A stretch of 64,000 nt of DNA, taken from positions 1,767,341 through 1,831,340 of the forward strand of contig CAJINV010000007.1 of the NCBI GenBank assembly GCA_905178155.1, given 5' to 3'. Below the pieces are notes generated by a model. That model was not told the DNA's origin. It was given only the letters and a program-made list of their open reading frames with translations, and did not search any database. Both the position numbers and the translations under genes were made by a program. Below are positions 31,992 to 37,900 of this stretch, in pieces. Origin of the DNA: Amoebophrya sp. A120. Lineage: Eukaryota > Protista > Dinoflagellata. Position 1 is the first letter of the stretch, and the number at the start of each line of letters is the position of its first letter.

Positions 31992-34900
31992 ATGACCGCG
32001 GGCATCGGCATGGACGGTGACAGTTTATCAAAAGTAAAAATGTCTGGGTCTGGAAACTTGTGATGCTGGGTGGCGTCTCATGATGAGGCTACAAATGCTG
32101 GCTCAGCATGACAAGTTTCTGAGCTCCTAGGTGTTGCCTATTCTGCATGACAAACTGCGCTTCTGCATCACAGAAAAGCGGAGCTCTTGGGTAACGTGCA
32201 TGACAGATTTAAGAGTCATGCCAGACAAGCATGACAAACATGAATTCTTCCAGACCCAGACATTTTTACAGTTGATACAGTTGGCGCGGAAACAACGGGA
32301 TGGACGGCTCCTGGCGAGGTGGGGGTGGTTTCAACCCCGGCGCGCAGGAGTTCAACCCGCAGGCGCAGACCTTCATTCCGAACATCCAGCACCAGGACCA
32401 GCAGCAGTTCGGTGGCCCGCAGAACGGCGGTTTCGGCGGAGGCATGAACATGGGCGGGGGAATGAATGCTGGATTCAACAACGGCATGGGTGGCGGTAAC
32501 GGGTTCAACAACGGGATGGGAGGCAACGGCTTTAACAACAACAACATGAACGGCGGCGGCTTTAACAACAACATGAACGGCGGCTACGGGGGCGGTATGA
32601 ACAACGGATTTCCGGGTAGCAGTTCCAGTTTCGAGTCCGGTTTCGGCGGCATGAACGGCGGTATGAACAAGTACGATCCGAGTTTCGGCGCCGGAGGGTT
32701 CAATAACGGGTATGGAGGTGGCTACGGGGGGTTCGGAAATGGATACGGTACTGATTTTTGCACGCTTCTACAAGCTTTTCGCATAAATCCAAAATAGCGA
32801 GTGATTCCCTCCTCGCCAGCTTGTATTTGCGATATGGTAAAAAATGCATATGCTTACATTATCATATCTCAGGTGGTGGCTTCCAGATCGGCAACAACGG
32901 TTTTGGCGCCAACATCGAGCGCATCGACTGGGGGCAGGAAGCCGCGCTCCTCGAGCGAACGGGTATTCAGAAGAACTTCTACACCGAGCACCCAGACGTC
33001 GTTGCGATGACCGACGAAGAAGCTGATGAATTCCGCCGGCAAAACGCCATTTCCTTCCAGAACTGCTGGGGTCCGAAACCCATCCGCATGTTCCACGAGG
33101 CGGGATTCCCCGAATACATCATGAAGGCGATTGGCGACGCCGGATTCGAGAAGCCGAGTCCGATCCAGGCCCAGGGGTGGCCGGTCGCGCTCGGTGGGAA
33201 CGACATGATCGGGATTGCGGATACCGGAAGTGGAAAAACGCTAGCGTTTTTGTTACCAGGTATCATGAATGAAGAAAATTATTATCTGTGTTGTAATTTT
33301 CTGTGCAGGTACTCTTCGTCTTCACCTGGGCATGCGCTTGCGCTGAATGAGAAAATCAAAGTTTCATCCGAATTATGCATTGGAAAACTACGTTCAACAT
33401 GATGTTGCTTCACATCGTTAACTTCAACGTCAACCCTACATCAGGTATGATCCACATCATACGGTAGGGAAAACTGTCCCCACTACCCCGGTTTTCCCCA
33501 AAGACAATTTTTTTTTTTCTATCCAACTGTAAGCAGGGCGGTCCCTTCGCAAGCGACCTACGCCGCGAATGACCAGACCGCGACGCCCGCTCCCCCAGGT
33601 GTGTTGCTTTATGGAATCAAAGAATTTGCGTAGCTAGTGGCACCCAGTAACTATTTTAGCAGCCCCTCCAGAAACATGCGCGCAATTTCAGAAAGGGCTC
33701 CGGGGCTCGGAGTCGAGACTCAGCCTGCCGCCCAGCCTTCAGAGCAGGGCAGCTCGCTGATGTTCTCTGCGGCCGACCCTCGTGCGCCTCTCTAATATTG
33801 CTGCCCTGCGCAAAAAGCGACGCGCATGCGCCAGCAGTTTTTTCGCGCAGGACCCGTTGCGCCGTCCGCGGAACTTGTTGCGCCGCGGGCGCGCCGGTCT
33901 ACCTGGTTCCCATGTGGCAAAACCAAGAACCGGGGCGCGCGACCTTCCCACCCGGGGCAGCGGAAAGGAGACAGGCAAACGCGGCATGGCAACGCTTTGG
34001 GCTTGGCGCCCATCTTGGCTGCCGACCGCCCGCCCTTGCAGGGGAAGGGCTTATGCATGGATGGCACCCCGGCGAAGGGCGTCGCGGTGGTGTTCCCCTG
34101 CGTGCGGCCCTTCCACTGGGGAAGGGCGCCGGGGGCACCGTACGGCGCGGCCACTCTGACGCACCCTCTTGGCATCCCCGGCGCCGCTTCTTTGCGGGCG
34201 CCTTGCAATTGTTTCGGGCCGATTCCTGCCGCCGCGAAAATCGCGCCCGGGTGGGTTTTGGAAACGCCCCCGGATGCCCCCGCCCGCAATCGCGCCGCCG
34301 CTAATGAAGCGCGCGCCCATCCCCCTGCCCCGGACCGCCGCCAGGGCGCAGGCCCCCGGCCTCATATTATCCAACCGGTGGCCCAGCGCCCTGCGGCGCG
34401 CATTTTGGCGCTAGTCACTGCTCCCCACCCGCCTTCGCGGGGCCCTTGCGCTTCAGCGGCCGACCCCTGGCACGAAACAAAGACGGGCCGCATTTTGGGC
34501 ACGCGAGCAAAATGAGACCCGAAAGCCCAGCGCCCAGGTGGCCAACGCCATGGAAGTATGTTGGGGGGCGACATGCCTACAAACGGAAAACACAAGCAGC
34601 CCCCCTCTATGTATGTCGTTGCAACATATCCGCACGCAAGCCCTGCGCGCCTGATGCGTAACACAGTCAAAGCCCCGGGCAGCTAGCCAGCGGGCCGCCC
34701 CAACGGTGACCAGGGAGGTGGCCCGGCGCTTTCGAGAAAAGCGCAAACGCAACAACTCGCCCCGCGGGCCTGGCCGGTGCCTGAAAGAAGGCGCCGGCGC
34801 TGCCTCGCCGGGCCGATGGGCCTTGCATCGGTGTGGCCGGCCCCCTGTCCTCCACGCCGAAAAGCGCAACGCCCGGCCCGCCTTTTTGGGGCGCAAGCAG

Positions 34901-37900
34901 CTCGGGCCCCGCGAAATAGTGCACTGGGCATGGCGCCCGGGACAGACCCGCCTCCCGGCCACCCAAGGCTGATCGCGAAGCCCCTTGCCGCGGACCTGTC
35001 CTCTCCGTCTTGGGGCTTGCCGGCAGCGTTTCCCTGAGTGCATGCTCGGACACGTTGGCGAGAAAAAAAACGCATGCTGGGGATTTCGGTCCTAAGCGGC
35101 TATCTACGCACTTTCGGCCACAAAAACGAGCACCAAAAGCCCCCCGAAAAGGTACGCATGCACGACCTCCAGGGAAACGGCGACGCCGGGTCCCCAGAAG
35201 TTGGGCGCGGCCTTCAAAGCCCGGGGGCCACTTGGGCCAGGGAACGGGGCCAAACCACGACCATAGGCGGGCCCGCGCGGCCCTGCCCAAACGCTCTGCC
35301 GCCGCATCCGCCGACGCGCCCCTCCTCGCTGCGCGACGCAGACTGCGCGCTCGGGAGCGAGCGCTGGGAAAGCAGATAAAAGAAGCAACGGGGGCCCCGG
35401 CGCCTGTGGTCTATCATCCAACCCAAGAAAAAGCGGGCGCCGGCCTTCTGGGGAGGTGCCCACCATACTCAGCGCAGCCAAGCGGACGAACTTCAGGCGC
35501 CGGCTTGGCGAGGTCATCCGAGTGGCCGGGCCGATGGTCCATGCGCAGGCCACCGCCCTGCGTGTGCGGGCGCCCGCACCCCCGTGGCGGCCGTTTCGCA
35601 TTTCCCATGCGGCCACACGCGGGCGGGCGGCGCGGATGCGTCTTTTTGCGTGGCCCCTTGGCCTGCGCGCGCGTACGGGCCAAGGGGCGAGCCCCCGGCG
35701 GGATGGCGCGGCCCAACGCGTTCGGGGCTTTTCGGTTCGAAGCGCGTCGTGAATTGCCAGGCCGCTGCATCTTGCGAGGCCCGCGCCCAAAAAGGTGGCG
35801 CCGGCCTGTTGCTCGGCAAGAATTTGGGCACATTGCCGGGGGGGGGCTTCGCGGTTTTGTGAAATTGCGAAACGCGCAGGCGGGCTGCTTTCGGTTTCTG
35901 TATTACGCAAGGGGCGCGGGCCATCAGCATGGGGCGCAGGCAGATCAGTCTGAAAAGGCTCCACCCTGCTCTGCGCATTCGGCGCCCGCCTCCCGGCCGG
36001 GCTTTGTTGTTGGACAGACGCAAGCCCTTGCCCCGCTCTGCCCGCGGCTAGGGGGCGGGCGCCCGAGGATGCTCCCGCCCCTTATAGAAGTCATATCGGG
36101 CCACCAGCTTCCGTGAGTTCTAGCGCGGCCACCAACTGGCTACGGAACGCAAATCGAAGCGGGTGGGCATGGTTCGGCGCCGCGTTTCTTCTTTGTTTTC
36201 CTGGTCAAATATTGCCCATGCGCGACAGCGTGGCGCCCTACCTTCGCAAGCAACGACAGGGCCACCACGGGAATGCGCCGCGCGAGACCGAGTTCAAGCA
36301 GCTCGGCTGACGACTCCAGGCCGCCGCCCACAGTACAACACGCGCCACAGCAGGTGGGGCTTTAGATCGCTAAGAGAGTCGCGGCGCCCCGCCCGAGGTA
36401 GCAGCGCAGCGCATGCTTTACCAGCACCGTGCCCGCGACCAAGTAAGCGTGATCTTTGTGGCGGGGCCGCGTTGCAGTAGCCCACACGCGGATGGGGCCG
36501 AAATGGGTACACACATCCACAAGGCCTGCTGCGTCGTCAGCTAATGCGCTGACTTTTGTGCGCCGCTATCTCGCTGGCTTCTTTGCATGCATAACAGAGT
36601 CAGAGACTATCCCTGAAGGAAATCCGCTGGCGGATACCATCCGGGCGGGTTGTGCGGCCGGCGGCCGTGTTGTTGTATGAGTTCAAAAAATTTTTTTTGA
36701 TTTGGGGAAAACCGGGGTATTGGGGACAGTTTTACCTAACGTACATCAAGGCCCAGCCTCCGCTGCAGTGGGGCGACGGTCCGATCATGCTCGTTCTGGC
36801 TCCGACCCGCGAGCTCGCCATGCAGATCCAATCGGAAGCCGATAAGTTCGGCAAGATGAGTAATGTGAGAAACACCTGCGTCTACGGAGGTGTCGCCAAG
36901 GGACCCCAGATCCGGGACTTGAGACATGGGCGGGAAATCGTCATTGCCACACCGGGACGATTGATCGATCTGATTGACATTAAGGTATTGCAAGAACTAC
37001 ACCAGGGAGAATTTACCATTTGTTACTCGTCCGTTTTAGTTGCCCTAACATGATAATGATTTTTTGCAGGTCATTGTCATTCGTGTTTTTGTAATAAGAA
37101 GTACAACTACACATCATCTGGAACAACAAGCTCCTTGGATAATCGTATCAGCTCGGTGGATGAGAATTTGAATTTGTCTGCTTGAAACAATCCACAGGTA
37201 ACCAACTTGAAACGTGTCACCTATTTGGTTCTCGACGAGGCCGACCGCATGCTGGACATGGGATTTGAAGACCAGGTATAGATGATTTATTTTCTACGGT
37301 TTTTCCTTTTGCTGTTTTACGCGCATGATAAATTTCCTTATGAATTATACCGTACTAAATTCCAGATCCGCACCATCTGTGGGCAACTGCGACAGGACCG
37401 GCAGACCCTGCTGTGGTCCGCCACCTGGCCGAAGGAGGTGCAGTCCCTGGCCCGCGACCTGTGCAAGGAACAGCCGATCCACGTGAACATCGGGTCAACG
37501 GACCTGAAGGCCAACCACCGGATCAAGCAGGTCGTCGAGATCTTCCCGGGCATGGAGACCGAGCCGGCGCGGCTCAGCCGGTTGTTCGAACTGTTGACGG
37601 ATTTGCCCATGGGCAAGAAGCTGATTTTCTCGCAGACGAAGCGCGGTGCGGACTTGCTCTGCCGCGAGGTCCGGCGACACGGCATGGTGGCGCAGTCCAT
37701 CCACGGCGACAAGCGACAGGAGGAGCGCGACTGGGCACTGGCCGAATTCAAAAACGGCAGAACACCCATCCTCATCGCGACGGATGTGGCGGCCAGAGGT
37801 ACTTATGTTTTGGGATGTTATTGTTCTGAATTTTTGTTTTGCAGCGACTATCTTTCTATGGCGGTAGCGTGGCCGGCTGTATGATATTTTTAGGGTCTTT

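What the first reader, a model, noticed from the sequence alone, without database searches (positions are those of the whole stretch)
33455..36748. 3.3-kb introner inside DBP2: candidate relic of the autonomous parent element
Seen: 43-bp TIRs at 40/43 identity and a perfect CATCA TSD split the conserved IHI|KAQP of an otherwise intact helicase. It is 10-20 times longer than the small introners and of transposase-encoding size. The interior is very GC-rich with no credible ORF, while the ends are well preserved. Inference: selection maintains the ends for splicing while the interior (a former transposase or cargo) decays, which may point to the unidentified mobilising enzyme.
Basis: partly seen in the sequence, partly recalled or inferred. 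Interest (0 to 1): 0.82.

Follow-up and report, generated by a model that had tools for sequence, protein, structure and literature searches.

The report
Long enzyme-free jumping intron, centred core
A 3.3-kb piece of mobile DNA sits inside a helicase gene of the marine parasite Amoebophrya and is missing exactly from the messenger RNA; it shows no trace of its own jumping enzyme and is likely the long form from which shorter copies arose by deletions that spared the ends and a small central block.

Summary
In detail: element 33460-36743, 43-bp TIRs (40/43), CATCA TSD, splitting IHI|KAQP of a DBP2-type helicase; a neighbouring exon matches an Amoebophrya sp. A120 protein at 100%. Contigs of three probable RNA runs (two samples, one study) and the public protein model show the exact empty-site join, so 3,289 nt are removed without GT-AG ends. 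DNA contigs show about 11 family copies; this one carries the most sequence. Shorter classes (about 0.8 kb x5-6, 1.2 kb x3) keep both ends plus a central block (35016-35212). In both multi-copy classes the left and right gaps have nearly equal net size (1243/1242, 1049/1048), if joints are paired by depth. No transposase signal was found: Pfam, NCBIfam, PHROGs, PDB and large protein searches gave no credible hit, there is no codon periodicity, and composition matches host GC-rich non-coding islands rather than decayed coding DNA. Verdict: a long non-autonomous member of the published A120 introner class, probably the parent form of a deletion series but not the enzyme source. The open oddity is the centred core. 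The 0.8-kb class fits published families 38 or 196 by size only.

The parts
31992..38928 (+). Host gene, DBP2/DDX5-type DEAD-box helicase (public A120 model P0001, 663 aa; paralogues P0007, P0008 exist)
   Evidence: ends read
33262..33446 (+). Canonical GT-AG intron just upstream, absent from the same RNA contigs
33447..33459 (+). 13-nt exon ending in the left TSD
   Evidence: (filler GATCC)
33455..33459 (.). Left target-site duplication CATCA
33460..36743 (.). The element, 3,284 bp, TAC...GTA ends; removed with one TSD as a 3,289-nt non-GT-AG intron
33460..33502 (+). Left TIR (TAY-N7-AAAA start)
33864..34847 (.). Segment seen only at single-copy depth (22.1); GC-rich, no credible gene
   Evidence: tables 2, 5, 8
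35016..35212 (.). Central block spared by all six listed family joints; three GCATGC palindromes; weak inverted repeat 35008-35036/35170-35198 centred 1.5 nt from the element centre
35251..36298 (.). Right interior segment, missing from both multi-copy classes, mostly shared with one about 8% diverged single copy
36701..36743 (-). Right TIR
36744..36748 (.). Right target-site duplication CATCA
36749..36982 (+). Downstream helicase exon

Best explanation
This is a long TIR element of the Amoebophrya A120 introner class that is missing exactly from the helicase mRNA, shows no detectable enzyme gene, was likely inserted by a cut-and-paste transposase encoded elsewhere, and is likely the long form from which the shorter family copies arose by deletion. 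Shown: TIRs, 5-bp TSD, exact empty-site join in RNA contigs, about 11 family copies that share the ends and a central block. Inferred: (1) a DDE-type transposase acting in trans made the 5-bp staggered cut; (2) TIR pairing brings the intron ends together across 3.2 kb for a modified spliceosome, with the donor at the last TSD base or the first element base (33459 or 33460), by analogy with the informative junction at 38489-38753; (3) the interior is non-coding GC-rich DNA of the kind found between host genes; (4) shorter classes lost two interior blocks each and kept the central block, which may be a cis-acting site.
For: Splicing: contigs of X3 and X5 (one sample) and X4 (second sample, same study) join 33263-(GATCC)-36743 and also lack the upstream canonical intron; the public model P0001 reads LLPGMIHIKAQPP. 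X3 also holds unique interior sequence (34067-34217, 0 differences), so the RNA source carries this copy; no empty-site joint is listed for DNA run X1 among the 11 joints. None of the 7 possible cut registers is GT-AG or GC-AG. Class: 10 elements with TAY-N7-AAA ends and 5-bp TSD in the window, 9 perfect; 186 of 227 TIR pairs in a related organism have an exact 5-bp TSD, 0 a 6-bp TSD; same grammar as PMC7789003 section 11. Family: summed depth 237.5 over single-copy 22.1, three left and three right joints, five X1 contigs with foreign flanks at the terminus. No enzyme.
Against: The direction (deletion from long versus growth from short) is inferred from nested breakpoints only; in the related organism five longer copies of a small family are normal ends plus unique filler, so growth happens in these elements. 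The transposase in trans was not found, and PMC7789003 reports none in A120. TIR-guided splicing was not tested. The RNA status of X3, X4 and X5 is a tool guess, and all belong to one study. Family structure comes from summary tables of collapsed contigs, not from full copy sequences. The codon-model test alone could not separate the interior from exons mutated by 20%.
Confidence: 0.72

Rival explanations
1. Decayed autonomous parent: the interior once encoded the transposase and has decayed past recognition.
For: Size fits; it holds the most sequence of the family and about 1 kb found in no other copy. PMC12130899 reports weak Copia/Gypsy homology in an 808-810-bp A120 family with TA/TA ends and 5-bp TSD, which the 0.8-kb class matches in size. 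A marginal Pfam hit to the integrase C-terminal domain (E 0.043) lies in frame 34655-34969. Host exons mutated by 20% or more score like the interior in a codon model.
Against: The integrase hit is 1 of 36 frames tested (about 1.5 expected at that E), is below cut-off, and did not reappear in the read-through scan; the same frame also gave an unrelated sub-threshold NCBIfam hit. Periodicity 6.1 vs shuffle 6.0; host coding sequence decayed by 10% averages 11.2 (minimum 6.5). GA o/e 0.75 and AA o/e 1.86 lie outside all eight decay settings (minimum 0.88, maximum 1.59); Asp+Glu is 3.5-4.8% in all six frames vs 12.6% in a host ORF. Relatives differ by only 8-17%, too little to erase a gene that was active when they split. 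Cis-like blocks sit in the middle of where a gene would lie.
Confidence: 0.12
2. Growth by capture: a 0.8-kb introner gained host GC-rich intergenic DNA stepwise, so the long copy is derived (Pack-type) and not parental.
For: The trinucleotide profile of the interior matches window islands 26001-27500 and 16501-17500 best (r 0.82-0.85; median tile 0.54). Filler-bearing long copies exist in the related organism.
Against: It needs insertions nested inside earlier insertions on both arms, each pair of equal size. A second, about 8% diverged copy shares the long right arm. No donor sequence was found in the window beyond one 44-nt match (E 1e-4). The filler copies in the relative are one-sided.
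Confidence: 0.12
3. Assembly chimera: arms of two family copies were joined at the shared central block or TIR.
For: Short-read contigs cannot phase across shared blocks; the left junction has only 29 nt inside the element; at 8 listed positions all X1 depth shows another letter.
Against: Unique pieces 32253-33488, 33490-34914, 35202-35666, 35784-36148 and 36661-38316 match with 0 differences at single-copy depth. PMC7789003 describes a Nanopore check for chimeric scaffolds. An RNA-run contig matches the window at 36545-36698.
Confidence: 0.04

Closest known systems
Introner elements / non-canonical introns of Amoebophrya sp. A120 (Farhat et al. 2021, PMC7789003)
   Same: Same organism by protein match; TAT-N7-AAA inverted-repeat start, direct repeat, precise non-canonical removal, no internal transposase.
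   Different: TAC on both ends (220 of 226 elements in the relative are TAT on both, none TAC on both); 43-bp TIR against the 8-20 nt described; 3,289 nt, outside that study's 40-1000-bp analysis window; paired deletions around a central block are not mentioned in the sections read.
A120 introner families 38, 196 and 103 (Gozashti et al. 2025, PMC12130899, supplementary file 8)
   Same: Family 38: 808-810 bp, TIR 49-53, 5 copies, '5-bp TSD, TA/TA termini'; family 196: 810-811 bp, TIR 54-57, 4 copies; family 103: 1143-1191 bp. The derivative classes here are estimated at 799 bp (5-6 copies) and 1,187 bp (about 3 copies).
   Different: Identity is untested: no family sequences were in the text-held files. 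The paper reports ORFs with Copia/Gypsy homology in family 38; I found no such signal in this copy. The window's unrelated 1,194-bp element fits family 103 equally well.
IS3EU/GingerRoot DNA transposons (PMC10045372)
   Same: TA..TA termini, TIRs.
   Different: Their TSD is usually 6 bp; here it is 5 bp. No transposase is present to place on a tree.
Phage Mu strong gyrase site (PMC10052514), functional analogy only
   Same: A central cis site whose mid-position is optimal for bringing transposon ends together; off-centre deletions slow Mu.
   Different: Bacterial, gyrase-dependent, 37-kb scale; here only geometry suggests it, with no protein or function known.
Euglenid nonconventional introns (review PMC11282704)
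   Same: TIR-paired, TSD-bounded, non-canonical introns from dozens to several thousand nt.
   Different: Other lineage and end motifs; circular excision products are reported there and untested here.

Membership tests
Amoebophrya A120 introner elements | Inverted repeat starting TAT + 7 variable nt + at least 3 A | tested here: met
   TAC-GGTAGGG-AAAA / TAC-GTTAGGT-AAAA; third base C instead of T
Amoebophrya A120 introner elements | 3-5-nt direct repeat at the boundaries | tested here: met
   CATCA
Amoebophrya A120 introner elements | Removed from mRNA as a non-canonical intron | tested here: met
   Exact join in contigs of X3, X4, X5 and in P0001; 0 of 7 registers GT-AG/GC-AG
Amoebophrya A120 introner elements | Repeated in the genome | tested here: met
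   About 11 copies by depth; five X1 contigs with other flanks
Autonomous TIR DNA transposon | Transposase ORF, intact or recognisably broken | tested here: not met
   No credible hit; composition unlike decayed coding DNA. HHpred on a multi-copy consensus could not be run.
IS3EU/GingerRoot | TA..TA termini | tested here: met
   TAC...GTA
IS3EU/GingerRoot | 6-bp TSD | tested here: not met
   5 bp in 186 of 227 pairs, 6 bp in 0; the extra A before CATCA occurs at chance rate in such elements (52 of 224)
IS3EU/GingerRoot | IS3-like DDE transposase | not testable with these tools
   No enzyme in the element; no genome held
Transib | 5-bp TSD with CAC termini (recalled, from no call) | tested here: not met
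   TSD length fits, termini are TAC...GTA
A120 family 38 (PMC12130899) | Sequence identity to the family's copies | not testable with these tools
   Only lengths, TIR size and TSD given; TIR motifs not found in the 14 text-held files
Foldback (fully palindromic) element | Arms complementary along their length | tested here: not met
   Inverted alignment scores at shuffle level (445 vs 442 +/- 14; 306 vs 312 +/- 20)

The most novel reading that the evidence does not exclude
These introners need a centred internal site: the block at 35016-35212 must lie equally far from both ends for the element to jump, as for the Mu strong gyrase site, so only derivatives that lost equal lengths from both arms (1243/1242 and 1049/1048 nt) were amplified. 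That would be a positional cis rule in a eukaryotic DNA transposon that my literature searches did not turn up, and a DNA bait for the missing Amoebophrya mobilising protein.
Probability: 0.2. Interest if true: 0.8.

Novelty: new variant of a known kind. Interest (0 to 1): 0.45.

Why it matters
The class is published and this intron is already in the public gene model, so the insert itself is not news, and it does not deliver the missing transposase. Two things remain useful. It shows that the unexplained Amoebophrya splicing route removes 3.3 kb to the base without GT-AG, in a family with natural length variants (0.8, 1.2, 3.3 kb) that share ends, which makes end-pairing models testable. And the spared, centred core suggests a cis requirement that can be checked in the public assembly in a day and, if real, used to fish for the unknown mobilising or splicing factor.

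Tried and rejected
Transposase relic: Pfam on 36 stop-to-stop frames gave three sub-threshold hits (IN_DBD_C E 0.043, Jas 0.22, PRR20 0.28); Pfam on six read-through frames 0; PHROGs 0 of 12; NCBIfam one chance hit in 19 (16 bits vs cut-off 450); PDB one E 0.11 hit in six frames; 398-aa frame vs 1.84 billion representatives 0; 239-aa frame 0 in near and longer searches (weak evidence by the tool's own note). The ESM Atlas could not take these frames. Structured RNA: Rfam 0 at gathering for the window and 0 at E 1 for the element; central block folds no better than shuffles (z 0.07). Hidden giant palindrome or tandem dimer: rejected. Ten-base A-tract phasing: none. Phage origin: no blastn match. 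The TIR 22-mer has no exact match in metagenome or viral contigs, and the element has no blastn hit in 148 loci (614 kb) of the related organism, which were selected for another family. U12-type reading: one register is AT-AC, but so is one in the element at 1223-1433 by TSD chance, and PMC7789003 reports no minor spliceosome. Conserved pairing of the central inverted repeat: of 8 listed variants 1 gains, 4 lose, 3 do not change pairing. Raw-read run X8 did not cover the helicase exons, so it says nothing. No RNA holder is on record as RNA, and lack of RNA-contig cover over the interior is not used as evidence. tblastx against the window gave only short GC-driven matches.
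Full report
Observation. The element runs 33460-36743 (3,284 bp) with 43-nt TIRs at 40/43 identity and a perfect CATCA duplication (E 8.6e-12). Removing it with one TSD restores GMIHIKAQP of a DBP2/DDX5-type helicase. An exon of this gene matches a protein named Amoebophrya sp. A120 at 100% (P0001), whose public model already reads LLPGMIHIKAQPP across the site. Two further A120 paralogues appear in the same search. No whole genome was held, so genome-wide statements rest on contigs of public runs.

Class. The window holds 10 elements with TAY-N7-AAA ends and a 5-bp TSD (9 perfect, 1 with a mismatch): eight of 150-317 bp, one of 1,194 bp, and this one; two further pairings in that output lacked a TSD and were dropped. 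This is the A120 introner grammar of PMC7789003. A scan with a small-family motif found a related organism (record series JACKZZ01, 148 loci): 186 of 227 TIR pairs have an exact 5-bp TSD and none a 6-bp one, which argues against IS3EU/GingerRoot, whose TSD is usually 6 bp.

Splicing. Contigs of runs X3 and X5 (one sample) and X4 (another sample, same study; RNA by the tool's guess) go from 33263 through GATCC to 36743, which is the empty-site mRNA with the upstream canonical intron also gone. The removed piece is 3,289 nt; none of 7 possible registers is GT-AG or GC-AG. X3 also carries unique interior sequence, so its source has this copy. At the imperfect TSD of the element at 38489-38753 the RNA contig resumes only at 38758, which places the cut at the last TSD base or the element start; by analogy the donor here is 33459 or 33460. 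That TIR pairing guides removal is inference.

Assembly. DNA run X1 has zero-difference contigs for 32253-33488, 33490-34914, 35202-35666, 35784-36148 and 36661-38316 at depth 17-25. X1 may be the window's own source and is not independent. The left junction is crossed by 29 nt only and shared blocks cannot be phased, so a chimera is unlikely but not excluded.

Family. Summed depth at 33553-33597 is 237.5 against 22.1 for one copy, about 11 copies; five X1 contigs show other flanks at the terminus. Left joints: 33608-34869 (depth 131), 33767-34848 (61), 33863-35016 (23). Right joints: 35212-36457 (104), 35250-36299 (60), 35305-35564 (17). All six spare 35016-35212. The segment 33864-34847 is single-copy. 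Other copies differ by 8-17% in the listed pieces. Pairing joints by depth gives classes of about 799 bp (5-6 copies) and 1,187 bp (about 3). Nested breakpoints favour deletion from a long ancestor, but this is inference. Published A120 families 38 (808-810 bp, 5 copies, 5-bp TSD, TA/TA ends) and 196 (810-811 bp) fit the short class by size; I saw 50 of 58 A120 rows and no sequences.

Equal arms. Net gaps are 1243 left and 1242 right in the short class, 1049 and 1048 in the middle class, uncertain by a few bases from small indels. Arm lengths to position 35103 are 1644/1640, 595/592 and 401/398. Two random gaps of 900 nt or more agree within 5 nt with probability 0.023 per class. The central block has 3 of the element's 6 GCATGC palindromes (p 0.004), and GCATG is the most enriched 5-mer (6-fold) inside 226 small introners of the relative, a set dominated by one family. 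The 1,194-bp element has four internal copies of its TIR motif, and one of three inverted pairs is centred 4 nt from its middle. Against: the test is post hoc, the two classes are probably nested, pairing is by depth and 131 vs 104 does not match exactly; the single-copy joints look asymmetric; the central inverted repeat is weak (17 of 6,289 diagonals score as well), listed variants do not preserve it (1 gain, 4 losses, 3 neutral), and the second GCATGC is altered in most other copies (35073, 573 of 630 depth).

No enzyme. Profile and sequence searches gave no credible hit. The 398-aa frame is at chance level (13% of shuffles). Codon periodicity equals shuffles (6.1 vs 6.0 +/- 0.7), whereas host coding DNA decayed by 10% averages 11.2 (minimum 6.5); GA o/e 0.75 and AA o/e 1.86 fall outside all eight simulated settings and match the window's GC-rich non-coding islands (0.66-0.74 and 1.66-1.79) (r 0.82-0.85). 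A codon Markov test lost power at 20% decay and is inconclusive. A foreign-composition or very old gene is not excluded. The ends are not shown to be better kept than the interior.

Literature seen. PMC7789003: sections 10, 11, 16 in full, passages, supplement text passages; it found no transposase in A120, analysed introns of 40-1000 bp, and lists a longest A120 intron of 35,152 bp. PMC12130899: passages, appendix legends, parts 15-17 of supplementary file 8, searches of 14 files; its preprint, passages. Passages only: PMC9860276, 10.1101/2020.10.14.339549 (21), PMC10045372, PMC10052514, PMC11282704. Figures, including Fig. 2F and S9 on family 38, were not visible and may bear on identity. 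Searches (listings only) showed nothing on equal-arm derivatives; they were not exhaustive. Transib termini are recalled.

Verdict. A real, precisely spliced, long non-autonomous A120 introner, probably the parent form of a small deletion series, not the source of the enzyme (0.72). Decayed autonomous parent 0.12, growth by capture 0.12, chimera 0.04. Interest 0.45; the centred-core rule has probability about 0.2 and would rate 0.8.

Noticed in passing
window 18310-19503: Second long element of the same grammar (1,194 bp, TSD GCCAC) in a coding region, unrelated in sequence, with four internal copies of its TIR motif (three forward, one reverse) clustered near the middle; no Pfam hit in six read-through frames.
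   Followed up: partly
window 16760-17500 and 25550-27400: GC-rich (67-70%) apparently non-coding islands between genes with the same dinucleotide signature as the element interior; nature unknown.
   Followed up: partly
window 38489-38753: Small introner with imperfect TSD (CCTGG/CCTCG); RNA contigs imply the cut lies at the last TSD base or the element start, giving a GTATGA-like donor in one register.
   Followed up: partly
window 31992-38928: The one helicase gene carries four introners (32026-32277, 33460-36743, 38292-38441, 38489-38753) besides canonical introns.
   Followed up: partly
window 43439-58135: A 4,898-codon stop-free frame with a CEP76 peptidase-like domain and a Neuralized domain, and no introner found in it by my scan.
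   Followed up: no
L071 7014-7985, L048 3862-4492, L072 10893-11388, L047 571-1051, L025 6304-6760: In the related organism, 457-972-bp copies of small introner families are normal ends plus unique filler without long ORFs.
   Followed up: partly
L001-L148 (record series JACKZZ01): A metagenome assembly holds an organism with the same small introner families as this window, although the literature calls these families strain-specific.
   Followed up: partly
window 34939, 34942, 34944, 35108, 36453, 36456, 36622, 36656: All X1 depth shows another letter than the window here; collapsed sister copy or consensus error. An X5 contig supports the window at 36545-36698.
   Followed up: no
window 34076-34118 vs 59504-59542: 44-nt inverted similarity (82%, E 1e-4) between the unique interior and a host ORF; chance or captured fragment.
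   Followed up: partly
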